DNA of 64,000 nt, from assembly GCA_018971045.1 (NCBI GenBank), contig JAGWVF010000001.1, forward strand, positions 75,480 through 139,479, written 5' to 3'. Positions 26,499-60,300 of the stretch are shown piece by piece (position 1 is the stretch's first letter; each line of letters begins with the position of its first letter). Position numbers and translations under genes: made by a program. Below the pieces are notes generated by a model that searched no databases, was not told the DNA's origin, and saw only the letters and a program-made list of their open reading frames with translations. Origin of the DNA: Patescibacteria group bacterium (GTDB lineage Bacteria > Patescibacteriota > Minisyncoccia > Phycocordibacterales > Phycocordibacteraceae).

Positions 26499-26590
26499 GA
26501 AGCTCTGAAAATTTAGATTATACACAGGATAGTACCAGTTTTTCCGCGAAATGCCACTCGTGCCTTGTTTCTCATATCGGCGTATACTCC
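26499..26590. promoter_or_regulatory. dnaA upstream region with DnaA box
   Basis: TTATACACA (fits TTATNCACA) at ~26517-26525 between rpmH and dnaA. Confidence 0.45.
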
Positions 26591-42877: not shown

Positions 42878-42952
42878 GGTGCGCCCAGCAGGTTACGATC
42901 CTGCGACCTTCTCCTTAAAAGGGAGCTGCTCTACCAGCTGAGCTATGGGCGC
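42878..42952 (-). tRNA. tRNA-Lys (anticodon UUU)
   Basis: Minus-strand GCGCCCATAGCTCAGCTGGTAGAGCAGCTCCCTTTTAAGGAGAAGGTCGCAGGATCGTAACCTGCTGGGCGCACC: perfect 7-bp acceptor stem, 4-bp D stem, 5-bp T stem, anticodon loop CTTTTAA. Confidence 0.8.
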
Positions 42953-43943: not shown

Positions 43944-43961
43944 ACGGGAATAGTAGCAAAT

Positions 43962-44504
43962 TTATTTGGAAGAGAGTGCCGCTTTCAGACGATTATCCTT
44001 GCCCGCGACCGTGTCGGGGACGGATTGAAGAGCTTTGCGCGCCTCCCGCTCGGTATAGCCGAGCGCGACGAGAGTGTCGAAGACCTCTCCGTCGGCGTTG
44101 TCGTGCGTGCGCGGCCCCACCTTGTCGGCGAGCTCGACCAGCATCTTTTCCGCGCTCTTTTTCCCGAGCCCGACCACTTTGGTGAGATAATCGAGATCGC
44201 GCTTTCCGATCGCGCCCTCGAGCGCCTCGCGCGGAGCGCGCCGGAGCGCGCCAAGAGCCGTTTTTGGCCCGACGCCGGCTACCGTCAAGAGGAGCTCGAA
44301 GAAATCGCGATCGCCGTCAGCGGGGAAGCCGTAGAGTTCGAGCCCGTCCTGTTTAAGCGCGAGGTGCGTCGCAAGGGTCGCTTCACTCCCGATCGAGAGC
44401 GCCTCGGGAGCGCTCATCCGCACCTCAATGCCGAAGCCGGCCGCCTCGATAGTGGCACTCGCTGGCCCCACCGAGAGCACCTTCCCGCGAATCTGGCGAA
44501 TCAT
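43962..44504 (-). CDS. ruvA: Holliday junction DNA helicase subunit RuvA
   Basis: MIRQIRGKVL... OB-fold, HhH motifs (VAGVGPKTALGAL), C-terminal domain III. Confidence 0.85.
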   Translation of the reverse strand: MIRQIRGKVLSVGPASATIEAAGFGIEVRMSAPEALSIGSEATLATHLALKQDGLELYGFPADGDRDFFELLLTVAGVGPKTALGALRRAPREALEGAIGKRDLDYLTKVVGLGKKSAEKMLVELADKVGPRTHDNADGEVFDTLVALGYTEREARKALQSVPDTVAGKDNRLKAALSSK

Positions 44505-44558
44505 GAGATTATCGTACCATCCTTGCGCGGATCGGCTGAGTACAGTAGATTGAGCGCT

Positions 44559-44828
44559 ATGGCTATCACCCGTTCAGCGAAGAAGGCGGCGCGCTCCTCG
44601 GCGCGCAAGCGCGTCTTTAACCTGCGCCGGAAAGACGCTCTGCGCGACACGACGAAGCTCCTCACCAAGGCGCTCGCGAAGAAGGATGTCGCCGGAGCGG
44701 AAAAACTCCTCCCGGCCGCCTATCAGGCGATCGACAAAGCGAAGAAGCGCGGGGTCATCAAGGCGAATACCGCCGATCGTAAAAAGTCTCGGCTTACCGC
44801 CGCGATCACTCGCGCCAAGGCGCTCTAG
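44559..44828 (+). CDS. rpsT: 30S ribosomal protein S20
   Basis: MAITRSAKKAARSSARKRVFNLRRKDALRDTTKLL...AITRAKAL; start moved to MAITRS (the rest of the 297-aa ORF is antisense to ruvA). Confidence 0.85.
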   Translation: MAITRSAKKAARSSARKRVFNLRRKDALRDTTKLLTKALAKKDVAGAEKLLPAAYQAIDKAKKRGVIKANTADRKKSRLTAAITRAKAL

Positions 44829-45416: not shown

Positions 45417-46742
45417 ATGACAAAGCACGATCTAAAGATAGAGTACGTGGCGCTCTCCTCCCTCCGCCACCCTGAACGAAATCCTCGCATATGGTCGAAG
45501 GAGGCGACCGCACAACTCAAAGAAAGTATCGAACAAAACGGAATCGTTGACCCGCTCATCGTGAACAATGCGCCAGAGAGAAAAGGAATCATCGTCGGTG
45601 GAAATTTTCGCGCAGAGGTCTTGAAAGAAATGGGGTATGACACGGTGCCGGTCGTATACGTGAATATCCCTGATCCCGCGAAAGAAGCTGCTCTCATAAT
45701 CCGCCTCAATAAGAACACTGGGGACTGGGATCTCAACTTGCTTGCTGAATTCGATTCCTTTCTACTCTCTGGCATTGGATTCACCTCCGAAGAACTGGAT
45801 GGGATATTTCCAGCTGAGGAGAATCCTGAGGTGTTCGACCTCCAGCGCGAACTCGCCAAACTCGAAATTACGAATGTCGATATCAAGCCCGGCGACAAGT
45901 TCGCATTCGGCGATTCATTCGTACGGTGCGGCGACAGCATGAGTGAAGCAGACATGCTCGCGCTCATGGGTGGCGAGCAGGCGGATATGGTGTGCACAGA
46001 TCCTCCGTACATACTTGATTATCTCAAAGGGAAAAAGAAGCAGGATGGCAAGGTGACTGAAGGATTCGGTCTGAAACGTGATCGCATCTATCTCGGCACA
46101 ACATCGCTCCCAGACAATTTCAGCGACCTATGGATGGCAGCCGTGGCGAAAGTGCAGAAGCCAGACTTCTCGATTCTCATCTTCGAGCACCCCAAGAACC
46201 TGAAGACCATCTGGACCGCGCTTGAGAAGCATTGGAAGTACCGCAACACCATCACCTGGCACGTCCCGAATCGCGTCCAAGGATTCGCAGCTAAGCACAA
46301 GTTCTTTAACAAACAGGATATTGCTCTTGTGGGCACGGGCGGCGAAGTATCGCTCAATCTCGAAGCCGAGGACGAGTTGTTCCAGAACGAGTACGAGAAT
46401 GCGATTTATGCCACTTCGGGCAAACCGCACTTCGAGTCGTACGAGAAGGGCAAGAAAATCTGCCCCACAGACTTCATTGAACATATCGCTGCCGATGCAA
46501 AATCCTCGGGCCAAAGCATTATCTTCGGCACGAAACCAATCGAGCTACTCATCCCGTACATCAAGGTGCTCACAAAGCGTGGCGACATCGTACTTGAGCC
46601 ATTTGGGGGTAGTGGTTCAAGTGCCGTGGCCGCATGGAAGCTCGGCCGACGATTTTTCCTGATGGAAAAATCGCCCGTGTACACGGCTGTCATCTTGAAA
46701 AGGCTCGAGAAGGTTACCGGCATCAAGCACAAGAAGGTATGA
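45417..46742 (+). CDS. ParB-like nuclease domain fused to N6-adenine/N4-cytosine DNA methyltransferase (phage-type)
   Basis: N-terminal ParB motif (GIVDPLIVNN, GGNFRAEV); MTase motif IV TDPPY and motif I EPFGGSGSS. Confidence 0.8.
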   Translation: MTKHDLKIEYVALSSLRHPERNPRIWSKEATAQLKESIEQNGIVDPLIVNNAPERKGIIVGGNFRAEVLKEMGYDTVPVVYVNIPDPAKEAALIIRLNKNTGDWDLNLLAEFDSFLLSGIGFTSEELDGIFPAEENPEVFDLQRELAKLEITNVDIKPGDKFAFGDSFVRCGDSMSEADMLALMGGEQADMVCTDPPYILDYLKGKKKQDGKVTEGFGLKRDRIYLGTTSLPDNFSDLWMAAVAKVQKPDFSILIFEHPKNLKTIWTALEKHWKYRNTITWHVPNRVQGFAAKHKFFNKQDIALVGTGGEVSLNLEAEDELFQNEYENAIYATSGKPHFESYEKGKKICPTDFIEHIAADAKSSGQSIIFGTKPIELLIPYIKVLTKRGDIVLEPFGGSGSSAVAAWKLGRRFFLMEKSPVYTAVILKRLEKVTGIKHKKV

Positions 46743-47128
46743 GAGGTGCGCACTGCAAGAAGATCCTCATCGAGGAGCTTAAGAAGAAGCCCGTTGTTGA
46801 GGCGGCGTGCCTGAAAGCAGGTGTCGGCAGAACCGCCTTCTACGATTGGAAAAAGAAGGACCCGAAATTTGCAAAAGCCGTTGAGCTGGCACTTCAATTC
46901 GGCAAGGACTTTGTCTCGGACATCGCCGAAATGCAACTCCTGAATGCCATAAAGTCGGGAGACTTTCGAGCTCTCGCTCTGTGGCTTAAGACGCATAAAA
47001 AGGAATACGGAAACCGGATGGAAATCGAAGGCGCACTCACCCTCATCGAGGAACTATCACCTGAAAAGAAAGAGGTCGTAAAAAGATCGCTCGCTCTAGC
47101 AAACCTAACTCTCAACAACCATGAATAA
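46739..47128 (+). CDS. phage terminase small subunit (HTH type)
   Basis: CLKAGVGRTAFYDWKKKDPKFAKAVELA HTH signature common in TerS proteins; ATGA overlap upstream and 8-nt overlap with TerL. Confidence 0.5.
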   Translation: MRGAHCKKILIEELKKKPVVEAACLKAGVGRTAFYDWKKKDPKFAKAVELALQFGKDFVSDIAEMQLLNAIKSGDFRALALWLKTHKKEYGNRMEIEGALTLIEELSPEKKEVVKRSLALANLTLNNHE

Positions 47129-48668
47129 CGACACTGCAAAGAAACCGTTAGACGATGACTCTTTGGACGCCGTATTGAACGACCGCGCCGTACGGCAAGC
47201 CGTCACGCGAGAGAGCCATCTGATGTTCTTTCATCTGTACTTCCCGCACTACGTGAAGTATGCGATTGCGGAATTTCAGAAAGATATCTTCCGCATCACA
47301 GAGGATTTGTCGAACCGTCTCGCCTGTATCGTTGCATTCAGAGGATCCGGCAAGTCGACTCTTGTGACCTTCTCGTATTCACTCTGGGCGATTCTCGGCA
47401 TCCAGCAGAAACGTTTCGTGCTCATCATCTGCCAGACCCAAGCACAGGCACGACAGCATATGAGCAACCTGAAATATGAGCTTGAACATAACGCACTGCT
47501 CAAGAGCGACCTCGGACCCTTCCGCGAGGATCAGACAAGCGGCGACTGGGCGATGTCATCGCTCGTCTTCCAGAACACGGGTGCTCGCATCATGATCGCA
47601 TCGGTGGATCAGAGTATTCGCGGTATCCGTCATCGAGAGTACCGACCTGACCTCATGATTCTCGACGATATCGAGGACATGCAGTCGGCAAAGACCATGG
47701 ACAGTCGTGCGAAGCTCTTCGATTGGTTCACCCGCGAGGTCGTGCCGCTTGGCGATGTTGGAACGCGCATCATCATTGTCGGGAACTTGCTCCATGAGGA
47801 CGCGCTCGTGATGAAGCTGCGGCGGTTGATAGACAAGAAAGAACTCAAAGGCGTGTACCGCTGGTTTCCATTCCTCGATGAATTTGGCGGCTCGATGTGG
47901 CCGGGCAAGTTCGATACCAAGGAGAAGATAGAGGAACTGCAGCAGAGCGTCGCAAATGAACTTGCATGGCGGCAGGAGTACCTCCTTGAGATTGTCTCTG
48001 ACGCAACGCGCGTCATTCATCCCGAGTGGATCCATCACTACAAGAAAATGCCCGCGACCACTGCTGCCAATGTCTACCGCGAGGCATACATCGGCATGGA
48101 CTTGGCGATCTCAGAACGGGAGAAGGCGGACAAGACCGCCATGGTCGTCGGACGGGTATTCGGCTGGGGTACCGATATGCGCATATACATTCAACCGAAT
48201 CCTGTGAACGAGAGGATGGACTTCCCGACGTCGCTTGAGAAAGCAAAGGTTCTGTCATCGACGCTTGATAACGGCAGGAAGGCGAAGATGTATATCGAGG
48301 ACAATATGTATCAGCGCGCTCTACCGCAGATGCTACAACTCGCCGGATATCCTGCCTTCGGTGTTGTGTCGCTCGGAGACAAGCGGTCGCGTATCGCGCT
48401 CATCAGCCACCTCATCAAGCAAGGCGTCGTCCTATTCCCCGAGACTGGGTGCGAGGAGATGATCTCTCAACTCACTGACCTCGGCAGAGAGCCGCATGAT
48501 GACTTGGCGGATGCCCTCGCGCTTCTCGTGTCAGAAGTGTCGAAATTGAATCAGGTGTATCAGCCATTTCCTGACCCGAGCAGATACTGGTCGAAAGAGC
48601 CCGGTGAGGAAGACGGTCTTGATAACAGCTACCCGATTACGAGAGGTATGAGAGACATGATTTTTTAG
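47121..48668 (+). CDS. phage terminase large subunit
   Basis: Walker A AFRGSGKST, Walker B MILDDIED, C-terminal RNaseH-like nuclease region (IGMDLA, ...DD); 515 aa. Confidence 0.8.
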   Translation: MNNDTAKKPLDDDSLDAVLNDRAVRQAVTRESHLMFFHLYFPHYVKYAIAEFQKDIFRITEDLSNRLACIVAFRGSGKSTLVTFSYSLWAILGIQQKRFVLIICQTQAQARQHMSNLKYELEHNALLKSDLGPFREDQTSGDWAMSSLVFQNTGARIMIASVDQSIRGIRHREYRPDLMILDDIEDMQSAKTMDSRAKLFDWFTREVVPLGDVGTRIIIVGNLLHEDALVMKLRRLIDKKELKGVYRWFPFLDEFGGSMWPGKFDTKEKIEELQQSVANELAWRQEYLLEIVSDATRVIHPEWIHHYKKMPATTAANVYREAYIGMDLAISEREKADKTAMVVGRVFGWGTDMRIYIQPNPVNERMDFPTSLEKAKVLSSTLDNGRKAKMYIEDNMYQRALPQMLQLAGYPAFGVVSLGDKRSRIALISHLIKQGVVLFPETGCEEMISQLTDLGREPHDDLADALALLVSEVSKLNQVYQPFPDPSRYWSKEPGEEDGLDNSYPITRGMRDMIF

Positions 48669-48729: not shown

Positions 48730-49449
48730 CTATTTGAGTAGACCAAAATCTTTTTGCACCAGAGCGAAATCCGCATCTACGCTCGTCTCGTCTTTCATCA
48801 GTTGCGCGGTCGTCTTGCCGCTAACCTGCCAGTCGATCGCGTCCGATCCCCAAGTATTGAGGTCGCTATCAAGCTGCGCCATGTCATCACGCCAGGTACC
48901 GAGCGCGTCGGGTTCCGTCTGATTGCTGCCTGAGTAGCAATCGGAGGCTGTGGTGTATGCCTTGACGATTGAGTCGTAGAAGGAGGGTTCGTATGTAGAC
49001 CATGTCTTGCGCCACGCTGAGAAGTTGCTGGCCGCAGAACCCGGCACGGTGAGCGCCTGAAGGCCCGTAGAGCTGTTTGGGTACTGAGACGTACCAAGAG
49101 CGTCTTTCCCGTCCTTGTATGCCTTTGCATAGGCAGCAGTGACCTTCGGGAAAGAAGCGAGTATCGCTTGGGTACAAGAACTCGGCGTAGGTGCCGCTTT
49201 ATCGGTTGCTGGAGCTGGCGCTGTCGTTATAGGCGTCTCCGTTACAGCTTGCGCCACTGGCTGCGACAATGATTCTGCCGTTGGAGAAATAAGCGGTCTG
49301 GTAAATGCGTATCCGAGAAACGCGACGATCATTGTGGCGATAAGAAGATCGCGAGATCGAGGAATCGATTTAAGCAGTTCAGGTTTGGTAAAGGAGAGGA
49401 TAAAGCCGATAACGGACGCTACAAGAAGTAGCGCAAAGAAAGTGCTCAT
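48730..49449 (-). CDS. membrane-anchored hypothetical protein
   Basis: Start moved to MSTFFALLLVASVIGFILSF (single N-terminal TM); Thr/Pro/Ala-rich linker then soluble domain. Confidence 0.45.
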   Translation of the reverse strand: MSTFFALLLVASVIGFILSFTKPELLKSIPRSRDLLIATMIVAFLGYAFTRPLISPTAESLSQPVAQAVTETPITTAPAPATDKAAPTPSSCTQAILASFPKVTAAYAKAYKDGKDALGTSQYPNSSTGLQALTVPGSAASNFSAWRKTWSTYEPSFYDSIVKAYTTASDCYSGSNQTEPDALGTWRDDMAQLDSDLNTWGSDAIDWQVSGKTTAQLMKDETSVDADFALVQKDFGLLK

Positions 49450-49610
49450 GGTTTGCTGGTCGCGATTTGTAATGCCCGGAGGAGAGACGCACTGAACCCG
49501 CCACCGGGTGGGTCTTGCGACCCGACAAGGATTTCTCCCTGCCACGCGACCAGCGTTCCCCGATGACGGGTTCAGTACGCTGGTCGCGATTTTCGGCCAT
49601 GCCGGGAGAA
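49450..49610 (-). promoter_or_regulatory. structured 5' leader with alternative helices (putative attenuator/riboregulator)
   Basis: Minus-strand leader carries AATCGCGACCAGCG ... CGCTGGTCGCG ... AATCGCGACCAGC (segment 2 can pair with 1 or 3; segment 3 ends ~6 nt before the ATG), plus CTGAACCCG/CGGGTTCAG and a duplicated ATCCTTGT. Confidence 0.3.
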
Positions 49611-49902
49611 TCACAAGGATCCTCAAGCCGGTTTAGGCCTCTTTATTCGGTTTACAAGAACATGATAGCTCATTCGGGACTATCGTTGTAGACCCTAGCT
49701 TAGTATTGGAGGCTTGCGAAGGTGGTAGCTTTGCGTCCTTATGTAGGGCTCGGAATTCTGGTTCCGCACCCCTTCTGTTCCTGGTGGATTTGTGTGTGGT
49801 GAATGTTGAAAGTGGCAAGGTCATGGAATTGCCTGTGCGGGGTACCTAATCAGCTACTCATTTCGATATAAATCTGGTAAACTACAGGTAAGTTGGATTT
49901 AC

Positions 49903-50103
49903 ATGTCAAATCGCAAACAAATACCCAAAGACGAGATTATTACCCTGCAAGAGGCGTGCGAGATTTTCAATAGTCATTTGAATACGCTTCATAACGGGGA
50001 CAACAAAAAGGATACTTTAAGCGGTTTGTTTTGGTATGAGACGTGTCCAGAAATATCGAAAAGTTCAGGTGCTAAATCTTTTACGCAAAAGAAAATGATA
50101 TGA
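49903..50103 (+). CDS. small hypothetical protein at 5' edge of the AT-rich gene cluster
   Basis: 66 aa; first ORF after the GC drop; no family recognised. Confidence 0.3.
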   Translation: MSNRKQIPKDEIITLQEACEIFNSHLNTLHNGDNKKDTLSGLFWYETCPEISKSSGAKSFTQKKMI

Positions 50104-51614
50104 ACTTCTTTACTTCAGCTCGTCGAAATAGGGAACCTGCGGCATCATTTGTTGTTGAATCAACTGGATCAGTATTTACCTACTCCCATTTAGATGCGTT
50201 ATCAGCTCAATTCGTCAACACTCTTGTCAAGCTTGGAGTAAGAAAAGGAGATAGGGTAATGGTATGTGCAGAAAAAAGCCTAGAAGCATTAGTAGTGTAT
50301 ATTGCTTGTTTGCGCGCAGGGTTTATTTTTGTACCAATTAATCCAGCATACACCAAAGCCGAATTAGAGTATTTTATTACAGATGCGCGCCCTGCGATAA
50401 TTATTGTTGATCCAGATAAGAAGAAAGACATCCATTCAATTCCACGAGCACTAAATATGCTTATTGAAACTCTTGGGGTGGATGGGAGAACAGGATCCTT
50501 CTTAGAGAAGGTAAGAGAAATGCCTGCCAAGTTCAACGATGTTGAATGTGATGATGATGATTTGGCAGCAATAGTCTATACGTCTGGAACAACCGGGAGG
50601 TCTAAGGGTGCAATGATTAGCCATAATAACCTGCGATCAAATGCGGAGGCACTTTGTCAAAGTTGGCGATTCTCAAATTCGGATGTGTTACTTCACGCAC
50701 TACCGATTTTCCATGTCCACGGACTTTTTGTTGCAACTAATGTAACACTTACAGCGGGCTCATCAATGATCTTTCTTCCCAGTTTTGAGGTTAATGAAGT
50801 CATCAGTCATTTGCCGCGTGCCACAGTTATGATGGGCGTGCCAACCTTCTACACTCTACTTCTGCAGGATGGACGGCTTACGCGGGATTTGGTCGAGCAT
50901 ACTAGATTATTTATTTCCGGTTCGGCCCCGTTATTGGTGGAAACACATAGAGAGTGGTTGGAGAGAACGGGGCATGAAATATTGGAGCGCTATGGCATGA
51001 CAGAGGCCGGCATGATAACTTCCAATCCTTATAATGGAGAACGTGTTCCTGGTGCAGTTGGATTTCCTCTGCCAGGCATAATTCTGCGCATAGTCGATCA
51101 GAACACCAAGGAACTTCTAGCTAATGGTCAAGTTGGCTCAATTGAAATCAAAGGGCCTAACGTTTTTAAGGGATATTGGCAAATGCCGGAAAAGACCAAG
51201 GATGAATTTCGAGAAGATGGTTTCTTTGTGACTGGTGATTTGGGGTTTATAGACGACAAAGAGTATGTTCATGTCATAGGTAGGCAGAAAGATTTAATCA
51301 TTACATGCGGACTTAATGTATATCCTAAAGAAATAGAGGAAAATCTTAACAAGATTCTCGGAATAACTGAAAGTGCTGTCATAGGCGTGCCGCATCATGA
51401 ATTTGGGGAAGGTGTTGTTGGGGTGGTAGTCAGTAAAAAGCACAACTTGTCAGAAGAGCAAATATTAGTTGAATTAAAGAAGAATCTGGCACCTTATAAA
51501 ATCCCACTAAAGATATTTCTGGTTGACGTACTCCCAAGAAATATTATGGGAAAGGTCCAGAAAAGCGCCTTGCGGGCATCGTACAGTAATTTATTTACGC
51601 GAAAATATGAATAG
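50100..51614 (+). CDS. matB: malonyl-CoA synthetase (MatB-type acyl-CoA synthetase)
   Basis: AMP-binding motifs YTSGTTGRSKGAM, ...ALPIFHVHGLFVATNVTL..., GPNVFKGYW, GKVQK; long stretches near-identical in pattern to rhizobial MatB as recalled. Confidence 0.8.
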   Translation: MNFFTSARRNREPAASFVVESTGSVFTYSHLDALSAQFVNTLVKLGVRKGDRVMVCAEKSLEALVVYIACLRAGFIFVPINPAYTKAELEYFITDARPAIIIVDPDKKKDIHSIPRALNMLIETLGVDGRTGSFLEKVREMPAKFNDVECDDDDLAAIVYTSGTTGRSKGAMISHNNLRSNAEALCQSWRFSNSDVLLHALPIFHVHGLFVATNVTLTAGSSMIFLPSFEVNEVISHLPRATVMMGVPTFYTLLLQDGRLTRDLVEHTRLFISGSAPLLVETHREWLERTGHEILERYGMTEAGMITSNPYNGERVPGAVGFPLPGIILRIVDQNTKELLANGQVGSIEIKGPNVFKGYWQMPEKTKDEFREDGFFVTGDLGFIDDKEYVHVIGRQKDLIITCGLNVYPKEIEENLNKILGITESAVIGVPHHEFGEGVVGVVVSKKHNLSEEQILVELKKNLAPYKIPLKIFLVDVLPRNIMGKVQKSALRASYSNLFTRKYE

Positions 51615-53055
51615 CAACAACGATAGAAACGAACGGAAGGAAATAACAAAACGTAGCGAAGATTATTCGCAATGGTATCTGGACGTCATCGCCGCGGCAG
51701 ATCTTGCAGAAAATGGTCCGGTACGCGGCACCATGATAATAAAGCCGTATGGCTATGCGATTTGGGAGCGCATACAGCGTATTCTTGATGAACATTTCAA
51801 GGAGCTAAACATAAAAAATGCCTATTTCCCTTTATTTATTCCAGAAAGGTTGCTCAAGCGTGAGACAGAGCATGTAGAAGGTTTTGCACCGGAGGTTGCT
51901 GTTGTGACTCATGCTGGTGGCAAGAAGCTTGAGGAACCACTGGTGGTGCGTCCAACGTCCGAGACAATCATGTACGAGACGTTTTCAAACTGGGTACAAT
52001 CATATCGCGATCTGCCACTTCTTATAAACCAGTGGGCAAATGTGGTGAGGTGGGAAATGCGTCCACGTCTCTTTTTGCGCACAACCGAATTTCTATGGCA
52101 AGAGGGGCATACGGTACACGAATCAATGAAGGAAGCAGATGCGTGGGCTCGACAAATGCTTAGTGTCTATCAGTATCTAGCAGAACAGGTGATGGCCATT
52201 CCGGTTATCCCAGGAATAAAATCGGAGTCCGAGAAATTTGCCGGAGCGTTCTGCACCTACACGATTGAGGCAATGATGCAGGACGGCAAAGCACTTCAAT
52301 TCGCAACGTCCCACAACTTAGGTACAAACTTCGCGAAAGTATTCAACGTGTCTTTTTTGGACCGAGATGGAAATCGTCAATACGGTTCGCAGACAAGCTG
52401 GGGATTATCTACGCGTACGATTGGTGGTCTCATTATGGCCCACAGCGACGACAAAGGGCTTGTCTTGCCCCCCTGGCTCGCCCCTATTCAGGTAGTTATT
52501 ATAACCATCGGACATGCCGACAGTACTGGTGTGGTCGAACAAAAAGCTAGAGAAATTGCTGAAGAGCTTAAAAAGGCGGGTATTCGAGTTGAAATTGATG
52601 CGCGGCAACTGCGTCCTGGAGAGAAGTTTTATGAATGGGAGAAGAAAGGGGTTCCAGTACGGATTGAGCTCGGCCCTAAGGATCTCGCAAACAATGAGGC
52701 GATTCTTGCTCGGCGAGATGGTGGTGAAAAAGTTAGCATCCCAGTTAACTTTCTAGCTAGAAAAATAAATTCCCTTCTGGCAGACATTCAAACGAATTTA
52801 TACAAAAAGGCTTCGCAAAACATGGTATCCAAAATCAAGAAAGTCGATACTTGGGACGAATTCTCTCGAGCCGTTGAGGCAGGCAACTTCGTTCTTGCTC
52901 ATTGGTGTGGTGACGCAGAGGTCGAGAAGCAAATTAAAGAGGAGACGGGTGCAACTATACGATGCATTCCGTTTGAACAAAAGGCTGAGGATGGTGAATG
53001 TGTGAAGAGTGGGAAACCATCCGTTACGCGTGTAATATTTGCCAAGGCGTATTAA
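51607..53055 (+). CDS. proS: prolyl-tRNA synthetase (archaeal/eukaryote-like class II type)
   Basis: Class II motifs and ProRS-specific region RPTSETIMYETFSNWVQSYRDLPLLINQWANVVRWEMRPRLFLRTTEFLWQEGHT; start at MNSNNDR overlapping the matB stop. Confidence 0.85.
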   Translation: MNSNNDRNERKEITKRSEDYSQWYLDVIAAADLAENGPVRGTMIIKPYGYAIWERIQRILDEHFKELNIKNAYFPLFIPERLLKRETEHVEGFAPEVAVVTHAGGKKLEEPLVVRPTSETIMYETFSNWVQSYRDLPLLINQWANVVRWEMRPRLFLRTTEFLWQEGHTVHESMKEADAWARQMLSVYQYLAEQVMAIPVIPGIKSESEKFAGAFCTYTIEAMMQDGKALQFATSHNLGTNFAKVFNVSFLDRDGNRQYGSQTSWGLSTRTIGGLIMAHSDDKGLVLPPWLAPIQVVIITIGHADSTGVVEQKAREIAEELKKAGIRVEIDARQLRPGEKFYEWEKKGVPVRIELGPKDLANNEAILARRDGGEKVSIPVNFLARKINSLLADIQTNLYKKASQNMVSKIKKVDTWDEFSRAVEAGNFVLAHWCGDAEVEKQIKEETGATIRCIPFEQKAEDGECVKSGKPSVTRVIFAKAY

Positions 53056-53069: not shown

Positions 53070-53864
53070 ATGCTTGAAAATGTTTTGGAGCTAAAGAATT
53101 TGCCAATTCCGCAACCAGGTTTTGATGTTGAATTGGTCAGAAATTATCAAGGTGTGAAGATCAATAAGGAAGGTTCGTTCTTCCGAGAAGAATTAGTTGA
53201 TATTCGAACCCTTGGTGTGAAGGGGTTGAACTACTATAATTCCACCTTCAATCCACCTTACTATCAATCCATTCCTGGATCTATTTCTTCATTGAAAGTG
53301 CGTAAGACAGTAGCTGAGAAGCTAGCGGCAGTAAATGAGAAGTTAAAAACAATCGGCCTCGAAATTTTTGTTTTTGATGCTTTCCGGCCGCTTGCTGTTC
53401 AGAACTATTTTTATTATGAGTGGGTCCCACGATATTTGCGCTCGATATATCCAGATAAAGATGAATTGTGGATTCTCCAGGAGTCCAATGCCTATTGGGC
53501 TAAGGGGGCCAGAAACAAAGATGAGCTATTGGCGTCTGCTCCGCCACATTCGACTGGTGGAGCGGTGGATATGACGTTTTGTTTTAAGGAGACGGGACAT
53601 TTGCTTGAAATGGGATCCATTTTTGATGATATAACAGAAAAATCCCACACTATTTTCTTCGAAAAAGATTTGGATCTCAAGAGCTTTACGGCCACAGAAG
53701 CGATGAAGAATCGTCGATTACTTTATCACCTGATGACGACGGAAGGGTTCGCTTCTCACCCGAAAGAATGGTGGCACTTCAGTTATGGGGATCAAATGTG
53801 GGCATTAATTACTAACCAGGCTGAAGCATTATATGGTTATGCAGGCAATGACTTCCAAACATAA
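53070..53864 (+). CDS. VanX-family D-Ala-D-Ala dipeptidase (peptidase M15D)
   Basis: Zn-ligand motifs SAPPHSTGGAVDMTF (SxHxxGxAxD) and KEWWHFSYG (EWWH); start moved to MLENVLELK. Confidence 0.75.
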   Translation: MLENVLELKNLPIPQPGFDVELVRNYQGVKINKEGSFFREELVDIRTLGVKGLNYYNSTFNPPYYQSIPGSISSLKVRKTVAEKLAAVNEKLKTIGLEIFVFDAFRPLAVQNYFYYEWVPRYLRSIYPDKDELWILQESNAYWAKGARNKDELLASAPPHSTGGAVDMTFCFKETGHLLEMGSIFDDITEKSHTIFFEKDLDLKSFTATEAMKNRRLLYHLMTTEGFASHPKEWWHFSYGDQMWALITNQAEALYGYAGNDFQT

Positions 53865-54636
53865 ATTCTGGCAGATTACGCCCCGTTTCTCGCCAGACAC
53901 AAAAAGTCTGATGGATGTTTGCGTTCATATCGCTCGGGTTCCCACAGACGGCTTGCTGTTGGAGGATTGTCTTAAAGTTTTGGACAGAACAGAACGTGAG
54001 AGAGCGCAGTCTTTTCGATTTGTCGAGGACAGAAATGCCTATATTACCGCACACGCATTACTGCGTTTTGCAATGAGCCATCGTTCCCGAGTTCTTCCAG
54101 AAGATTGGATTTTCAGAACATCACCTTCAGGGAAGCCGGAGCAAATTAATCTGCCAGGGCAGATGTATTTCAATATATCCCATACGCGAGGAATGGTCTG
54201 TTGCGCGTTATCCTCCACTAGTGTAGGAGTCGACATAGAAAATATTGATGCGCTGAGTAATTTTGGAAACCTGGATCCCCTCTTCAACAAGGAGGAAATC
54301 AATGAGGTCAGTTGTTTACCGGAACGGGACAGGAATTTCCGGTTTATAATTTACTGGACTCTACGAGAATCTTTGCTCAAGGGCACGGGAGAGGGAATTG
54401 GCGGTATTTCAAGGGACTTCTCCTTTTTTGTTAGTGACAATAAGGAAATCTTCCTCAAGGAGGCACGGCACCCTTCTTTACTGAACGGGTGGAAATTTGC
54501 CACTTTTCTGGTTGATAACCATTACATTGTTTCGGTTTCTACGTGTAATCTTACTAATAAGACTCAGAATATTTATCCGAATTTTAGAGGTGAGGTCGAG
54601 CTGATTGGTGCGTCGCAATATATCAAATCTTTTTGA
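53848..54636 (+). CDS. Sfp-type 4'-phosphopantetheinyl transferase
   Basis: PPTase motifs FNISHTRG, GVDIENI, WTLRESLLKGTGEG. Confidence 0.8.
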   Translation: MTSKHKFWQITPRFSPDTKSLMDVCVHIARVPTDGLLLEDCLKVLDRTERERAQSFRFVEDRNAYITAHALLRFAMSHRSRVLPEDWIFRTSPSGKPEQINLPGQMYFNISHTRGMVCCALSSTSVGVDIENIDALSNFGNLDPLFNKEEINEVSCLPERDRNFRFIIYWTLRESLLKGTGEGIGGISRDFSFFVSDNKEIFLKEARHPSLLNGWKFATFLVDNHYIVSVSTCNLTNKTQNIYPNFRGEVELIGASQYIKSF

Positions 54637-54648: not shown

Positions 54649-55491
54649 ATGAACTATTTATCTTCAGAAACATTCGGGGCGGGCGACCTAAACTCAATTG
54701 GATATTTATATCGCCTTGTAGACTTTAAGAACAGGATTGAACTCATTCCCGCCTGTACAGAAAACAATGAAAAATTTATTGCGACAATGACAGAATTGTG
54801 GGCCTTTCTAACGTCCATAGAGGATGATGATGTCATCATTGAATTGCAGGGCGATAAACGATTTCCGTTAGTTCAGCAATATCTGGCTAAAAAATGGCAC
54901 GAGTATATAAGTATCATTGAAACCGATGAGGCCGAGAGATTTCTCTCGAAGACAGATTCCAAAGAGGCTAATTCAATGCTAGCTGAGGAAGACTATATGG
55001 GCGTGAATTATGAATTATCGCTACTCAGCGAAAAATTAACAGGCCTTAGCGTAATCATGGTTGGCTGCGGCCCGTTTCCAGAGACACTAATGGAAGTTTA
55101 TAAAGACAATAAGGATATAAAGTATGCAATCGGAATTGAGGGGAGAAATGACGTATCGCAGCTTGCAAATAGGATTGTCACGAAGGTATTCCCAGGTGTC
55201 GAGAATGTCAAAGCAGTAGCATCGGATGCGGAATCATTTGATTATAGAGATGCTGATGTTATTTTTCTTGCTAATGGACTAATAAAGAAGGACTTAATTC
55301 TCCAAAGAATCTACGATACCGCAAAGGATGGCGTAAAAATTTTAGCCAGAAACCCAATCTTGATGGGCAGGTTGTTTTACGAGGATCTATACTCTTTGCC
55401 TTCCATCCAGTACTTTGTTATTTGCGGTTCGGTAAGGGCAAGTAAATTGAGTGAAACTATTTTGTTCAGGAAGCGTGATAAAATTATATGA
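54649..55491 (+). CDS. nicotianamine-synthase-like (CntL/NAS family) SAM-dependent 3-amino-3-carboxypropyl transferase
   Basis: VIMVGCGPFPETL (cf. NAS VAFVGSGPLPLTS), DADVIFLANGL, VKILARNPILMGRLFY align with conserved NAS blocks by eye. Confidence 0.5.
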   Translation: MNYLSSETFGAGDLNSIGYLYRLVDFKNRIELIPACTENNEKFIATMTELWAFLTSIEDDDVIIELQGDKRFPLVQQYLAKKWHEYISIIETDEAERFLSKTDSKEANSMLAEEDYMGVNYELSLLSEKLTGLSVIMVGCGPFPETLMEVYKDNKDIKYAIGIEGRNDVSQLANRIVTKVFPGVENVKAVASDAESFDYRDADVIFLANGLIKKDLILQRIYDTAKDGVKILARNPILMGRLFYEDLYSLPSIQYFVICGSVRASKLSETILFRKRDKII

Positions 55492-57362
55492 CTAACGCAT
55501 GCTCGCATTTCTTTAAATGTGCCTCAAAATGGCCTAACAAAACGGCACTGGTTTTTGATTGTCAAGAAATAAGCTATAAGGACTTAGCAGATCGTGCGAA
55601 TGTTCTCGCTCACAGGCTAAACATTCTTGGGGTTAAGAGCGGGACTCTTGTTGGGGTGTATCTTCCCAGATCAGTTGATCTAATAGCATCAATACTCGCC
55701 GTATTGAAGATTGGCGCTGGATACGTTCCTCTCGACGTTTCTCTTCCAGAGGGACGTATCAAATACATCCTATCTAATTCTGGAGTGAAAGTTGTTGTCA
55801 CAAGCAGGGAACCTGGTTCAAAAAATACAGCCCCCATTATTGAGGGGGTAGGGTTACTGTATGTAGATGATCTAATGGCCTCTCATTTCAATGAGACGGA
55901 GATAGCAGAGGGGAAGACTGCTTACGTGATGTATACCTCAGGGTCTACTGGTTTGCCAAAGGGGGTTCAAATGGGACATAGTGTGCTTATTAATTTAGTT
56001 GAGTGGCAAAGTAAGGTCACCAATATTTCCGATGGCATTACATTACAGTATGCGCCAGCAAGCTTCGATGTCTCTTTCCAAGAAATATTTTCCACCCTCT
56101 CATTTGGTGGGACTTTGATCTTGTGCAATGAAGACACTCATCGTGATCCAGAGAGGTTGTTGTACCTAATTGCATCTGAAAAGATTGAAAGGATTTTCCT
56201 GCCTTTCATTGCGCTTCAGCAGTTGGCAGAAATTGCGCAAATAGGACAGGTCCCCAGCAACTTGCGTGAGGTGATTACTGCAGGTGAGCAGCTACGAATC
56301 ACCCCAGCGATAAGGGCCTTCTTCAAAGCATCGCAGGATTGTAGGTTAATCAATCAGTACGGCCCAACAGAAACTCATGTAGTCACAGCCTACGAGCTTT
56401 TGGGAGACCCGGTGCGGTGGCCGCCCTTGCCTCCGATTGGGAAACCAATACAGAATGTTCAGGGATTTATATTCGACGAATTCAAACAGGAGGTACTAGC
56501 TGGTGAGATTGGTGAGTTGTATATTGGCGGAACCTGTTTGTCGGAGGGGTACATTAATAATCCATCTCTTACTGATGCCAGTTTTGTCCAACACCCTCTC
56601 TCGGGAGAGAGATTATATAAGACCGGGGATCTCGCACGACTTCTTGAAGACGGGAATCTTGAATTTGTGGGAAGAAAGGATAACCAGGTTAAGATACGGG
56701 GATATAGAATTGAACTGGGAGAAGTTGAGATAGTACTGGCCGAGCATCCAGCTATACGAGAGTGTGTTGTTGACGCAAGAAAAGATGTTTTTGACCGGAC
56801 TAAGCTAGTGGCGTATCTTGTAATTCGAGAAGAATATAAGATGCGTTTAACATCCACCCTATATGACGGTGCCGAATGGACTTCTTTTTTAAGAGAAAGA
56901 GTGCCTGATTATATGATTCCCTCAACGTTTATAGTGTTATCGTCCTTACCACTCACTACAACAGGGAAGGTCGACCGAAAATCTCTTCCAACCCCATCAA
57001 AACAAAGGCCGGAACTCGTGTCTACTTGGGTGGCGCCTGGAAATGAAATGGAAATGAAAATAGCCAAGACCTGGAGAAATGCACTTGAATTGAATGACGT
57101 CGGTGTAAATGACAATTTCTTCGAAATTGGCGGCAATTCTTTACTTGTCGCGTTTGTGCAGCAAGAACTCATGCAGGTGCTGTCAACAAAAATTTCGGTC
57201 GCTGATCTATTTCAATACCCGACTATCCGATCCCTTGCAGAAGAGATAGAAAACCGGCGGAATACCCCTTATACGCACAAACCGCTCTATGGTCACCCGA
57301 AAACAGGCAATCTTTCGCCCGCATCGAAGAGAATAAACGCAAGAAAACGTTATGAGAAGTGA
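55488..57362 (+). CDS. stand-alone NRPS loading didomain (adenylation + peptidyl carrier protein)
   Basis: A-domain cores (YTSGSTGLPKGV, FDVS, GELYIGG, YKTGDLAR, GRKDNQVKIRGYRIELGEVE, TGKVDRKSL) and PCP motif FFEIGGNSLL; no C or TE domain. Confidence 0.85.
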   Translation: MTNACSHFFKCASKWPNKTALVFDCQEISYKDLADRANVLAHRLNILGVKSGTLVGVYLPRSVDLIASILAVLKIGAGYVPLDVSLPEGRIKYILSNSGVKVVVTSREPGSKNTAPIIEGVGLLYVDDLMASHFNETEIAEGKTAYVMYTSGSTGLPKGVQMGHSVLINLVEWQSKVTNISDGITLQYAPASFDVSFQEIFSTLSFGGTLILCNEDTHRDPERLLYLIASEKIERIFLPFIALQQLAEIAQIGQVPSNLREVITAGEQLRITPAIRAFFKASQDCRLINQYGPTETHVVTAYELLGDPVRWPPLPPIGKPIQNVQGFIFDEFKQEVLAGEIGELYIGGTCLSEGYINNPSLTDASFVQHPLSGERLYKTGDLARLLEDGNLEFVGRKDNQVKIRGYRIELGEVEIVLAEHPAIRECVVDARKDVFDRTKLVAYLVIREEYKMRLTSTLYDGAEWTSFLRERVPDYMIPSTFIVLSSLPLTTTGKVDRKSLPTPSKQRPELVSTWVAPGNEMEMKIAKTWRNALELNDVGVNDNFFEIGGNSLLVAFVQQELMQVLSTKISVADLFQYPTIRSLAEEIENRRNTPYTHKPLYGHPKTGNLSPASKRINARKRYEK

Positions 57363-60300
57363 TACAAACAATCGAATAAAGGAAACTGACATTGCAATAA
57401 TAGGCATGTCTTGTCGTTTTCCGGGTGCTCAAAATGTAGAAGTATTTTGGGAAAATTTAAAAAATAGCAAGGAGTCCATTTCATTTTTCACTAATGACGA
57501 ATTGGAAAATGGGGACAAGGAGATAGTAAAAGATCCACACTTTGTTAAAGCTGGCTCCGTATTGGATGAAGTGAAATCTTTCGACGCTGGTTTCTTTGGT
57601 TTTTCTGAACAAGACGCAAAGATTTTAGATCCTCAGCACCGGAAGTTCCTTGAGTGTTCATGGGAAGCGTTGGAGGATGGGGGATACAACCCCGACGTCT
57701 TTAAAGGAAGCATCGGTGTTTTTGGCGGTTCAGGTATGAGTACGTATTTTTTGAATAACGTCCATCCGAACATCGGATACCATCCAAATCGGACGTTCCT
57801 TGAATCAATGGGGGATTTGCAGCTATTAACAGCAAACGACAGGGATTATCTTACTACACGTGCTGCATACAAACTTAATTTGCGCGGTCCGAGTATTAAC
57901 GTACAAACAGCCTGTTCCACTTCATTAGTCGCAGTTCATCTTGCATGCCAAAGTATTCTGAACGGAGAGTGTGATATGGCTCTTGCAGGGGCGGTAACAA
58001 TCTTGTGTCCGCAAAAAACCGGCTATTTATATCAGCAGGACATGATTCTTTCCCCTGATGGCCATTGTCGCCCATTTGATGCGAAGGCAAAAGGAACAGT
58101 TTTCGGTAGCGGTGTAGGGGTCATACTGCTCAAAAGATTTTCCGATGCAATCCATGATGGGGACGCTATTCATGCAGTCATTAAGGGAACGGCAGTAAAT
58201 AATGATGGGGCAGTTAAAGTGGGGTATTCTGCGCCAAGCGTAAATGGACAATCGGCAGTAATTGAAGAGGCTATGGCGGTTGCCGATGTTGAACCGACGA
58301 ATGTTACTTACATTGAGGCACACGGGACGGCAACACAGATTGGTGATCTTGTGGAAGTCACAGCGCTTAAACAGGCGTTTCAAACTGAAAAAAGAAATTT
58401 TTGTGCACTCGGTAGCGTAAAATCGAATGTTGGGCACCTTGCTTGGGCTTCAGGGATGGCGGGGCTTATAAAAGTTATTCTCGCGCTTAAACATAAAAAG
58501 ATTCCAGCTACTCTCAATTTCGAGAAGGCGAATTCTCAGATAGATCTTGAGAACTCCCCTTTCTATGTCAATGCCGACCTTGTTGACTGGGAGACAGACA
58601 GCACAAGAACCGCAGGAGTCAGCGCTTTTGGTCTTGGTGGCACAAACGCACACATAGTTTTAAGCGAGGTTTCGGGAGCAAAAACCTCTGATCTCAAAAA
58701 AGACGACAGTCATATTTTCACATTGAGTGCCAGAAACGAAGGGGATCTCAGAACGCTTGCTGAGCGATATGTACAATTCTTAAACAAAACAACAGAAGTG
58801 TCCTTAGTCGATATTTGCTATACGTCGAATATAGGTAGAAGGCACCTCGATAAGAGGTTGGGATTCGTAGTCTCATCGGTGTCTGAACTTCAAGAGAAGT
58901 TGCGGTGTTTCATTGATTGCGTTTCTATACAAAAATACGTTCAGTCACGACTACAAAGTAGTGCAGCAATACATATGAGCGAGAGGGCACAAGTATTGGT
59001 TCGTCTGGCACAACAGTATGAATCTGGTGTGAATGTTGATTGGGGGACTGTATATACCGGATGGGCGGGACAGAGAGTTCACATGCCAACCTACCCATTT
59101 CAACGAAATGAATACTGGATAGAATCTATTGCAAAACTCAGACCAGCACAGAGGAATGAACAGATGGACTTGGCGGGTAACCTGTATGATATGCAGTATG
59201 AAAAACTGCCGCTATACGGAAGCGCCTCACGATATCTACCAAGTGTTCAACAGCTAAGCAGGGAATTGAATAAGAGATTTAAGGAGATAGCCGTGTCGTC
59301 TGGAATGAAGGGCTACACTAAAGAGTTGAATTTGCTGGAGAAAATCAGTTACCAAATGATTATTAACGCTTTTGTTCAACTCGGCTGTAAGTTTGATGTA
59401 AAGAACATCACAACAGAAGAGTTCGTGCGGCGATTTAATGTAGTTCCTCAATACAAGAAACTCATAGATAGATTTTTTGAGATTCTTGAGGAAGAGGGGG
59501 TTGCGAGCCGGGATGATTTTCACTGGAAGTTGCTCAAAAAGCCAAAAATTGCGGACGTTTTATTAACAGGGCAGAAGCATAGTTTATGTGAATTTGATTT
59601 TCTAAATCGTTGTGGTTCTAATCTCGCAGATGTTCTGCGTGGAGTAAAAAGTCCATTGGATTTGCTGTTTCCAAATGGAGACACTTCTCTTCTAAAAAAG
59701 CTGTATAGTGAATCACCCACCCTGAAAGCAATGAATATGCTTGTCGCCGAAGCAGTTTCATTGCTGGAACAGAGTACTCCGAAAAAAATGGGTTTAAGGA
59801 TCTTAGAGATAGGCTCTGGGACTGGTAGTGCCACCGCATCTGTTTTGTCGAAACTCTCATCCAGTAAGACCGACTACACATTCACCGACTTATCAAACAG
59901 CTTCATATCGGAAGCGAAAAATAATTTTGTAGATTATTCTTGCATATCATATGCGCAGCTTGATATAGAAAAAACCCCAAGTACCCAAGGTTTTTCTGAG
60001 GAGAAGTATGATGTAATTATTGCTGCAAATGTTTTACACGCGACTCAAGATTTGAGGGGGGCCATTTCTAATGTCAATAAATTATTGGCTCCTGGCGGAA
60101 TATTGATCCTTCTTGAAGGAACGGCACCTGTACGTTGGGTCGATCTCACCTTTGGTTTAACAGATGGGTGGTGGCATTTTACTGATTATGACCTAAGATC
60201 TCGCTATCCACTTTTACCGCCCAAAGAATGGGAAAGGGAATTGCTAAATCATGGCTTTGCTGAGGTAGAAACTCTGACGTCAGAGGAAATTGGTTCCTCA

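What the first reader, a model, noticed from the sequence alone, without database searches (positions are those of the whole stretch)
51607..53055. Prolyl-tRNA synthetase encoded inside the biosynthetic cluster (possible self-resistance or target marker)
A complete class II ProRS sits between matB and the VanX-like gene. It shares the cluster's low GC and overlaps the matB stop, indicating co-transcription. aaRS copies inside gene clusters are the classic signature of self-resistance to an aaRS inhibitor (mupirocin/IleRS, borrelidin/ThrRS, indolmycin/TrpRS, albomycin/SerRS). No bacterial pathway making a ProRS inhibitor is known to me, so this would predict a new target-directed antibiotic class. 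Alternatives are that this is the only proS of a reduced genome, or an aa-tRNA-dependent tailoring function.
Basis: inference. Interest (0 to 1): 0.75.

Follow-up and report, generated by a model that had tools for sequence, protein, structure and literature searches.

The report
ProRS gene inside Patescibacteria biosynthetic island
A complete, normal-looking proline-tRNA ligase gene travels as a fixed part of a very rare, proline-using polyketide/peptide gene cassette that was imported into an ultra-small (Patescibacteria) bacterium; it is probably a protective spare copy of the enzyme, but whether the genome has a second copy could not be checked.

Summary
ORF 51607-53055 encodes an intact 482-aa archaeal/eukaryote-type ProRS. 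Its start overlaps the stop of a malonyl-CoA synthetase gene by 8 nt, and it lies in a tightly packed eight-gene operon.

The window comes from a Patescibacteria MAG. The cassette (~49.9-63.5 kb) is a low-GC island (GC3 0.35-0.46) in a GC3 ~0.7 chromosome.

The cassette family is extremely rare: 14 protein clusters among 5.8 billion. In all seven versions whose gene order I could read, proS sits directly upstream of the VanX-like gene. One deeply divergent version carries a ProRS of a different lineage in the same slot, so the linkage appears to be selected.

The island ProRS is not the host-lineage orthologue. The pathway is proline-centred: its A domain has a 9/10 proline code, and it sits next to a nicotianamine-synthase/CntL-like SAM enzyme.

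Three points weaken the reading as a specialised resistant enzyme:
- There are no cluster-specific active-site changes.
- Cluster-linked ProRSs are interleaved with ordinary housekeeping ones.
- A second proS in the genome could not be searched for.

The best reading (~0.4) is a cluster-dedicated spare copy of the target that buffers proline charging against a proline mimic. The main rival is a sole or anchor housekeeping copy.

The parts
51607..53055 (+). proS: E-type (archaeal/eukaryote-like) prolyl-tRNA synthetase, 482 aa; NCBI MBU6214353.1
   Evidence: TIGR00408 588 bits. Pfam domains. 1H4Q alignment, 575 bits. Exact match P0001, 'Patescibacteria group bacterium'.
49903..50103 (+). 66-aa ORF of unknown function, first gene of the low-GC operon; overlaps the matB start by 4 nt
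   Evidence: no Pfam hit. Other versions carry an XRE-type HTH gene at this position.
50100..51614 (+). matB-like malonyl-CoA synthetase
   Evidence: NF005702 743 bits, cutoff 558. AMP-binding domains.
53070..53864 (+). VanX-like M15 zinc dipeptidase (ORF opens at 52998; the start at 53070 is inferred from homologues)
   Evidence: Peptidase_M15 88 bits. VanX 1R44 at E 2e-12 with the HS..D and EWWH motifs aligned. N-termini of homologues.
53833..54636 (+). Sfp-type 4'-phosphopantetheinyl transferase
   Evidence: ACPS and AASDHPPT_N.
54649..55491 (+). Nicotianamine-synthase/CntL-like SAM-dependent enzyme (KGM48_00720, MBU6214356.1)
   Evidence: Profile hit to CntL at E 4e-4. AF2 model with pLDDT 86. 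Foldseek full-length matches to MtNAS 3FPE (E 2e-13) and CntL 7C9M (TM 0.7). Only 14 clusters in 5.8e9 proteins.
55488..57362 (+). Stand-alone A-PCP didomain with specificity code DVQFIAQVVK (proline-like)
   Evidence: Pfam. The code was extracted against GrsA and is identical in six cluster versions. Pro codes DVQFIAHVxK and DVQYIAHVTK are listed in PMC2866473.
57352..63432 (+). Hybrid PKS-NRPS: KS, C-methyltransferase, KR, ACP and a terminal C domain; no AT domain
   Evidence: Pfam.
49510..49639 (-). LOOT RNA motif at the left edge of the island, on the host side
   Evidence: Rfam RF03000 70.2 bits, gathering score 46.4.
45417..48668 (+). Phage-like genes next to the island: ParB-N6/N4 DNA methylase, small HTH protein, terminase large subunit
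   Evidence: Pfam.

Best explanation
The proS is a fully functional ProRS that belongs to a compact, self-sufficient, mobile PKS-NRPS cassette. The cassette reads small ORF, matB, proS, vanX-like, PPTase, NAS/CntL-like, A-PCP, then KS-cMT-KR-ACP-C. It is co-transcribed with the pathway.

The pathway is built on proline-like chemistry. A proline-code A domain loads proline or a proline analogue onto the PCP. The adjacent nicotianamine-synthase-like SAM enzyme can make azetidine or aminobutyryl amino-acid derivatives. The PKS then extends the chain.

The most likely role of the ProRS is self-protection of tRNA-Pro charging. It would act as a pathway-linked spare copy of the target, keeping Pro-tRNA-Pro synthesis going while the cell makes a proline mimic. 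That mimic could be a free imino-acid intermediate such as azetidine-2-carboxylate, or a pyrrolidine-bearing final product that occupies the proline pocket. Protection could come from extra dosage or from lower sensitivity.

Shown: integrity, operon position, conservation, double recruitment, foreign origin, and the proline-type A-domain code.

Inferred: the protective role, the existence of a native second proS, and the nature of the product.
For: 1. The ProRS is an intact canonical enzyme.
2. The operon is tightly packed, with 4-8 nt overlaps and no internal promoter or terminator signal.
3. proS lies directly upstream of the M15 gene in 7/7 readable versions of a cassette family that has only 14 protein clusters in 5.8e9 sequences.
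4. The divergent version L175 carries a ProRS of another lineage in the same slot.
   - It is excluded from the main-group clade in 100/100 bootstraps.
   - The distance ratio d(L175 to main)/d(within main) is 2.25 for ProRS against 1.22-1.48 for the five other genes.
   - So the slot was filled or refilled independently, which implies selection for linkage.
5. The island is compositionally foreign, with GC3 0.35-0.46 against ~0.7. The ProRS is not the orthologue of the Kaiserbacteria-like host lineage. The recipient therefore must have had its own proS when the island arrived.
6. The A-domain code DVQFIAQVVK is invariant in six versions and matches the Pro code at 9/10 positions.
7. The neighbouring enzyme is NAS/CntL-like. 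Plant NAS forms an azetidine ring, Pro-type A domains accept AZE, and AZE-synthase genes in other bacteria, including CPR, are often next to aaRS genes (PMC11794875).
8. E-type ProRS without an editing domain mischarges AZE (PMC5741666).
9. There is precedent for cluster-borne aaRS copies with protective or dual roles: AcmD and SbzA (PMC12945691).
Against: - No residue is shared by all cluster-linked ProRSs and rare elsewhere. The S261/T240 changes belong to a wider subclade that includes housekeeping-context genes.
- In 100/100 bootstraps the smallest clade holding the cluster-linked ProRSs also holds ProRSs from ordinary contexts such as dnaG, rplU/dnaB/cysS and pheST/gyrB/serS. The enzyme therefore looks like, and can probably serve as, a housekeeping ProRS.
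- A second proS in this MAG or in any other carrier was not demonstrated.
- The NAS/CntL fold more often means aminobutyryl transfer (opine-type metallophores) than free AZE synthesis. AzeJ and VioH were not among the top 50 fold matches. A metallophore would not need ProRS protection.
- Extra dosage does not cure misincorporation of an analogue.
- No exporter is present in the cassette.
Confidence: 0.4

Rival explanations
1. Sole or anchor housekeeping copy. The cluster-borne proS is simply the cell's working ProRS. In native carriers it would be the only copy. After transfer the resident copy is lost, so the essential gene locks the cassette into a streamlined genome. It has no chemical connection with the product.
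For: - The host is a reduced-genome Patescibacterium.
- The ProRS is canonical, without special substitutions.
- Cluster-linked and housekeeping-context ProRSs are interleaved.
- In L001 and L175 the cluster matches its flanks in GC3, so it is native there.
- In L175 proS is the first gene of the operon.
- No second copy appears among the top 120 ProRS hits under this MAG's naming.
Against: - Accidental hitch-hiking does not explain why two unrelated ProRS lineages occupy the same slot next to the M15 gene.
- It also does not explain why proS lies between cluster genes (matB and vanX-like) in the main group.
- In this window the gene is foreign to a host lineage that must have had its own proS.
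- The proline-code A domain makes a purely coincidental link to proline metabolism unlikely.
Confidence: 0.27
2. Biosynthetic supplier. The ProRS provides Pro-tRNA-Pro (or prolyl-AMP) as a building block for a tRNA-dependent step of the pathway, as VlmL SerRS does for valanimycin and AcmD AlaRS does for ascamycin.
For: - proS is conserved as an operon member.
- Any housekeeping-type ProRS would do the job, which fits the double recruitment and the absence of special substitutions.
- The terminal C domain has no obvious acceptor module.
- There is precedent in PMC12945691.
Against: - No known aminoacyl-tRNA-dependent transferase family (Fem/GNAT, CDPS, LanB-type, aaRS-like transferase) was detected in the eight cassette genes.
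- The cassette already has its own proline-code A-PCP to activate proline.
Confidence: 0.15
3. Artefact. The contig is an assembly or binning chimera that joins a high-GC Kaiserbacteria-like genome to a low-GC Patescibacteria fragment, in which the cluster and its proS are native.
For: - GC changes sharply at ~49.8 kb.
- One related contig is binned as 'WS2 / Ca. Lithacetigena', which shows that binning of these contigs is unreliable.
Against: - GC rises again to ~0.50 after the PKS stop, where a TrmB-like host-type ORF fragment lies. That gives two junctions, as expected of an insertion.
- The conservation and double-recruitment results do not depend on this contig.
Confidence: 0.06

Closest known systems
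Cluster-borne resistant aaRS copies (MupM IleRS/mupirocin, BorO ThrRS/borrelidin, and others; own knowledge plus bioRxiv 10.1101/2020.06.01.128595)
   Same: A complete aaRS gene lies inside a PKS-type cluster. It is conserved across homologous clusters and moves with them by horizontal transfer.
   Different: Those copies are strongly divergent from the housekeeping enzyme, which is known to coexist with them (MupM is 23% identical to its housekeeping copy). Here the ProRS is 70-79% identical to ordinary Patescibacteria ProRSs, has no special substitutions, and a second copy is unverified. No ProRS case and no CPR case is on record in what I could search.
AcmD (AlaRS, ascamycin) and SbzA (IleRS-like, SB-203208) (PMC12945691)
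   Same: These are extra aaRS copies in a cluster with a protective and/or biosynthetic role tied to the cognate amino acid of the product.
   Different: Those pathways contain recognisable aa-tRNA-dependent transferases and make aminoacyl-sulfamoyl nucleosides. This cassette has none and is a PKS-NRPS hybrid.
AzeJ/VioH-type azetidine-2-carboxylate clusters, including a CPR clade, often next to aaRS genes (PMC11794875)
   Same: These combine a SAM-consuming enzyme, a Pro-type A domain and an aaRS gene. They are mobile, rare, and present in Patescibacteria. AZE is a ProRS substrate mimic.
   Different: The SAM enzyme here has the NAS/CntL fold, not the AzeJ fold. The figure legend of that paper names a class I tRNA ligase among the neighbouring genes, not ProRS. 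AZE production here is only a hypothesis.
Nicotianamine synthase and CntL (staphylopine) aminobutyryl transferases
   Same: The 280-aa neighbour matches them full-length in fold (TM ~0.7) and weakly in sequence.
   Different: Identity is 15-18%. It is coupled to an A-PCP/PKS rather than to an opine dehydrogenase. Substrate and product are unknown.
Thermus thermophilus ProRS (PDB 1H4Q) and other E-type ProRSs
   Same: The architecture and catalytic motifs are the same end to end.
   Different: Two of the four Zn-ligand cysteines of the Thermus C-terminal domain are absent. This is also true of most background homologues, so it is not cluster-specific.

Membership tests
Prolyl-tRNA synthetase, E-type (TIGR00408 proS_fam_I) | Full-length match above the curated cut-off, with class II core, HGTP anticodon-binding domain and ProRS-C_1 domain | tested here: met
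   588 bits against a cutoff of 437. Three Pfam domains.
Prolyl-tRNA synthetase, E-type (TIGR00408 proS_fam_I) | Catalytic and proline-pocket motifs conserved (PTSET, RWE, FLWQEGH, TSH, TSWG, C-terminal Tyr) | tested here: met
   Alignment to 1H4Q. The motifs are identical in all cluster-linked copies. The list of pocket residues is from my own knowledge.
Prolyl-tRNA synthetase, E-type (TIGR00408 proS_fam_I) | Aminoacylates tRNA-Pro | not testable with these tools
   Needs an enzyme assay.
BGC-embedded self-resistance aaRS | Located inside the cluster and co-transcribed with it | tested here: met
   8-nt overlap with matB and operon packing.
BGC-embedded self-resistance aaRS | Conserved in homologous clusters | tested here: met
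   7/7 readable versions, plus 2 more by contig-length matching.
BGC-embedded self-resistance aaRS | A separate housekeeping copy exists in the same genome | not testable with these tools
   Only 64 kb of the MAG is visible. The genome is absent from the GTDB-representative scan. Exact-protein look-up failed.
BGC-embedded self-resistance aaRS | Phylogeny or composition discordant with the host (acquired with the cluster) | tested here: met
   GC3 0.45 against ~0.7. Host PolA has more than 120 relatives at 76-82% identity, whereas the ProRS has 3 hits at >=77%, all cluster-linked.
BGC-embedded self-resistance aaRS | Diverged from housekeeping enzymes at the inhibitor or substrate site | tested here: not met
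   No cluster-specific residue. Interleaved with housekeeping-context ProRSs in 100/100 bootstraps.
BGC-embedded self-resistance aaRS | The product inhibits the cognate aaRS | not testable with these tools
   The product is unknown.
aa-tRNA-dependent biosynthetic pathway with a dedicated aaRS | A tRNA-dependent transferase is present in the cluster | tested here: not met
   Pfam and NCBIfam scans of the cassette genes show none. The scans cannot exclude a novel one.
Nicotianamine synthase / CntL family (for the neighbouring 280-aa gene) | Full-length fold match including the N-terminal helical domain, and the SAM-binding Rossmann core | tested here: met
   Foldseek 3FPE at E 2e-13 and 7C9M at TM 0.71-0.77. 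The Pfam NAS hit is below the gathering score (25.6 against 27.1) in one homologue.
AzeJ/VioH AZE synthases (for the neighbouring 280-aa gene) | AzeJ fold and the FY, PFNxxGN and RxxYYxxC motifs (PMC11794875) | tested here: not met
   Neither enzyme is among the 9 PDB profile hits or the top 50 Foldseek hits. I did not see these motifs in consensus A2.
Proline-activating NRPS A domain | Stachelhaus code DVQ[FLY]IAHVxK | tested here: inconclusive
   The code DVQFIAQVVK matches at 9/10 positions, with H322Q, and is invariant in 6 versions. The substrate could be Pro or an analogue.

The most novel reading that the evidence does not exclude
An episymbiotic, genome-reduced Patescibacterium carries a mobile 13.6-kb cassette. 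The cassette makes a proline-mimicking small molecule, either azetidine-type or a pyrrolidine-polyketide, that poisons prolyl-tRNA synthesis in other cells. The co-transferred ProRS is the immunity determinant. This would be the first microbial pathway aimed at ProRS or proline decoding, and the first target-directed antibiotic system in the CPR.
Probability: 0.25. Interest if true: 0.85.

Novelty: new variant of a known kind. Interest (0 to 1): 0.6.

Why it matters
aaRS genes embedded in clusters are the most successful pointers to target-directed antibiotics, but in what I could search no microbial pathway is tied to ProRS. The only natural ProRS inhibitor listed in the review I read is plant febrifugine.

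Here the link to proline rests on independent evidence: the proline-code A domain, the NAS-like enzyme, and the proS slot filled twice. This gives a concrete, clonable 13.6-kb cassette to express.

It also matters for CPR biology. These ultra-small bacteria are thought to have almost no secondary metabolism, yet this cassette brings its own PPTase and malonyl-CoA supply, and it moves between lineages.

If instead the proS proves to be the only copy, it would be an example of an essential gene locking an accessory island into a minimal genome.

Tried and rejected
- Exact-protein look-up of the window ProRS to get the rest of the contig found nothing on record.
The best hits were only 71% and 70% identical, none had cluster genes, and the window genome was absent.
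- A plasmid DNA search gave no match.
- I searched for a resistance signature.
  - S261 and T240 (against W and Q in ~88% of homologues) looked promising but are shared with housekeeping-context relatives.
  - F232 is common.
  - No residue is shared once L175 is included.
- I considered a zinc-independent paralogue in a metallophore operon. The Zn-ligand cysteines are missing in the main group but also in most background sequences, and they are present in L175. Rejected.
- I considered that the cluster-linked ProRSs form a discrete monophyletic subfamily. NJ bootstrap does not support this: 19% and 0-1%.
- I tested for phage carriage of the cassette. The NAS-like gene is absent from IMG/VR, and only distant ProRSs (56-63%) occur there.
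- No housekeeping-context locus retains remnants of cluster genes.
- The NCBI accession-block trick to find a second proS gave the accessions MBU6214353.1 and MBU6214356.1, but none of the other nine accessions retrieved lies in that block.
- No riboswitch or T-box lies upstream of the operon.
- 'Kaiserbacteria' L028 was rejected as a proxy for the host ProRS because its GC is 31%.
Full report
**Observation**

The ORF 51607-53055 (+) encodes a 482-aa protein. It matches NCBIfam TIGR00408 (proS_fam_I) over its whole length at 588 bits against a cut-off of 437. It carries the class II core, the HGTP anticodon-binding domain and the ProRS C-terminal domain. It aligns residue for residue with Thermus thermophilus ProRS 1H4Q (575 bits), and all catalytic motifs and the terminal Tyr are conserved. 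It is the archaeal/eukaryote-like type without an editing domain.

- Its ATG overlaps the TAG of a malonyl-CoA synthetase gene (NF005702, 743 bits) by 8 nt.
- The next gene is a VanX homologue in which the HS..D and EWWH motifs align with VanX.

**Where it sits**

The exact protein is NCBI MBU6214353.1, 'Patescibacteria group bacterium', on a 150,636-bp contig. The left 49 kb of the window is ordinary chromosome.

- It carries nusA, type IV pilus genes, recJ, comEC, VirB4/T4SS-pilin genes, ruvB, a PBP and polA.
- dnaA-dnaN lie next to the cumulative GC-skew minimum.
- GC3 is 0.67-0.75 for most of these genes.

From ~49.9 to ~63.5 kb lies a compact operon with GC3 0.35-0.46. Its genes are:

- a 66-aa ORF;
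- matB;
- proS;
- the vanX-like gene;
- an Sfp-type PPTase;
- a 280-aa protein;
- a stand-alone A-PCP;
- a 2026-aa KS-cMT-KR-ACP-C protein without an AT domain.

After the PKS stop, GC returns to ~0.50 and a TrmB-like host-type ORF fragment follows. This is therefore an inserted island with two junctions. It lies beside a ParB-methylase/terminase remnant.

**Is proS part of the cluster?**

The 280-aa protein is the best marker of the cassette because it has only 14 protein clusters in 5.8 billion sequences. I could read the gene order in seven distinct versions:

- the window;
- L001/L002;
- L003;
- L084;
- L085/L086;
- L174;
- L175/L176.

proS is directly upstream of the M15 gene in every one. 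Two more versions are inferred by matching contig lengths. Pairwise identities in the main group are ProRS 70-79%, M15 64-75%, PKS 56-63%, A-PCP 54-60%, the 280-aa protein 45-59% and PPTase 40-50%.

The most divergent version, L175, has no matB and a PKS that contains an AT domain. It still begins proS-M15-PPTase-....

**Two ProRS lineages in one slot**

The L175 ProRS is only 50-55% identical to the other cluster ProRSs. It groups with Patescibacteria ProRSs L011 and L013. It is excluded from the main-group clade in 100/100 NJ bootstraps, and the smallest clade holding both has 146 of 275 sequences.

The ratio of distances (L175 to main group, over within main group) is 2.25 for ProRS. It is 1.22-1.48 for M15, the NAS-like protein, A-PCP, PKS and PPTase. 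So the ProRS did not simply co-diverge with the cassette. The slot was filled or refilled from a different lineage. An accidental neighbour would not be expected to be replaced like-for-like, so this is the strongest evidence that the linkage to proS is selected.

**Host or donor?**

The host PolA (KGM48_00650) has more than 120 relatives at 76-82% identity. They are named Parcubacteria 21-58-10, GW2011_GWB1_57_6, Ca. Kaiserbacteria and the like, which marks an abundant high-GC lineage.

The island ProRS has only three hits at >=77% identity, all cluster-linked and from low-GC contigs. None of the PolA relatives' contigs reappears in the ProRS hit list. Together with GC3, this shows that the ProRS came in with the island and is not the orthologue of the host lineage.

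The recipient must therefore have had its own proS at the time of transfer. Whether it still has it could not be tested, for these reasons:

- The MAG is not among the GTDB representatives that were scanned.
- Exact look-ups failed.

From the lack of visible amelioration I estimate about 0.7 that two copies coexist. This is inference.

**Does it look like a resistance enzyme?**

It does not. Across 275 homologues, no residue is shared by the cluster-linked copies and rare elsewhere. W261S and Q240T/E mark a wider group that includes ProRSs in ordinary contexts:

- next to dnaG (L090);
- near rplU/dnaB/cysS (L173);
- on a 694-kb contig beside pheST, gyrB and serS (L087).

In 100/100 bootstraps the smallest clade holding the cluster-linked copies also holds such housekeeping-context genes. 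The enzyme is thus interchangeable with housekeeping ProRSs. This is unlike MupM- or BorO-type resistance copies, and it keeps the sole-copy reading alive.

**Why ProRS? The chemistry of the cassette**

The A-PCP specificity code is DVQFIAQVVK in all six versions examined. That is nine of ten positions of the proline code DVQFIAHVxK (PMC2866473).

The 280-aa protein, translationally coupled to the A-PCP, gives a confident model (pLDDT 86). Its only full-length structural matches are archaeal nicotianamine synthase (3FPE, E 2e-13) and CntL (7C9M, TM ~0.7).

- Plant NAS enzymes build an azetidine ring from SAM.
- AZE synthases of another fold occur in CPR bacteria and often neighbour aaRS genes.
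- Pro-type A domains accept AZE (PMC11794875).
- E-type ProRS charges AZE onto tRNA-Pro without editing it (PMC5741666).

The pathway is therefore proline-centred. It may generate a proline mimic, either as an intermediate or as a pyrrolidine/azetidine-bearing product.

This gives a rationale for a co-expressed ProRS as a protective spare target. It does not prove it. The NAS/CntL fold could equally signal an opine-type metallophore, for which a ProRS would be unexplained.

**Verdict**

- The self-resistance interpretation is partly supported. Three of the usual criteria are met (co-localisation, conservation and horizontal origin), one is untestable here (duplication), and one is not met (divergence).
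- My best explanation, at ~0.4, is a cluster-dedicated, functionally ordinary ProRS copy that buffers tRNA-Pro charging against proline-mimicking chemistry.
- The rivals are a sole or anchor housekeeping copy (~0.27), a Pro-tRNA supplier (~0.15) and an assembly chimera (~0.06).
- I found no report of a ProRS embedded in a biosynthetic cluster, nor of a microbial ProRS-directed natural product.

**Limits**

- The trees are neighbour-joining on Kimura distances, not ML.
- Contexts are known for seven cluster versions and four housekeeping loci only.
- Names of MAGs are unreliable: one cluster contig is binned as WS2.

Noticed in passing
window 49510-49639 (-): A LOOT RNA motif (Rfam RF03000, 70 bits against a gathering score of 46) sits exactly at the left border of the island. 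It overlaps the annotated 5' end of ORF 48730-49626, whose real start is probably the internal ATG. Its function is unknown.
   Followed up: partly
window 50100-51614 and 57352-63432; L175 12758-19810: There is a complementary pattern between versions. Main-group cassettes have matB and an AT-less PKS with no trans-AT gene. The divergent L175 version has no matB but a PKS with an AT domain. This suggests that the MatB-like ligase may substitute for AT in loading malonate, or that malonyl loading is otherwise unusual.
   Followed up: no
window 54649-55491: The NAS/CntL-like protein family is extraordinarily rare, with 14 clusters in 5.8 billion proteins. Every member whose gene context I could read lies in this cassette. 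Named members are from Patescibacteria-type MAGs (Moranbacteria, 'bacterium').
   Followed up: partly
window 45417-48668: A ParB-N6/N4 DNA methylase fusion, a small HTH protein and a terminase large subunit (weak Terminase_6C/6N hits) lie next to the island without other phage structural genes. tRNA-Lys lies at 42878-42952 (-). This may be a prophage remnant or a mobile-element scar.
   Followed up: partly
window 24000-29200: The cumulative GC-skew minimum lies next to dnaA (26591-27955) and dnaN (28068-29168). This is the probable chromosomal replication origin, and the island is only ~23 kb from it. dnaA, dnaN and pbp1 have lower GC3 (~0.55) than other host genes.
   Followed up: no
window 43935-44828: The ORF has a ribosomal protein S20 domain only in its C-terminal 80 residues. 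Either this is an N-terminally extended rpsT or the mechanical ORF call puts the start too far upstream.
   Followed up: no
L174 (NCBI QLUP01000012.1, GCA_018725485.1): A full copy of the cassette is deposited in a MAG named candidate division WS2 / 'Candidatus Lithacetigena glycinireducens'. Either the cassette occurs outside Patescibacteria or the contig is mis-binned.
   Followed up: no
L003 83-304, L174 968-1180, L085 1-34, L172 504-704: An XRE-type HTH gene precedes matB in several cassette versions. A related one (32-36% identity) sits directly upstream of a cluster-less proS in L172. The window has an unrelated 66-aa ORF at that place.
   Followed up: partly
window 17000-25300: A block of VirB4/TraG-like ATPase, T4SS pilin and several unannotated large ORFs, together with two PilB/PilC sets and comEC, is typical of the Patescibacteria DNA-uptake and surface apparatus.
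   Followed up: no
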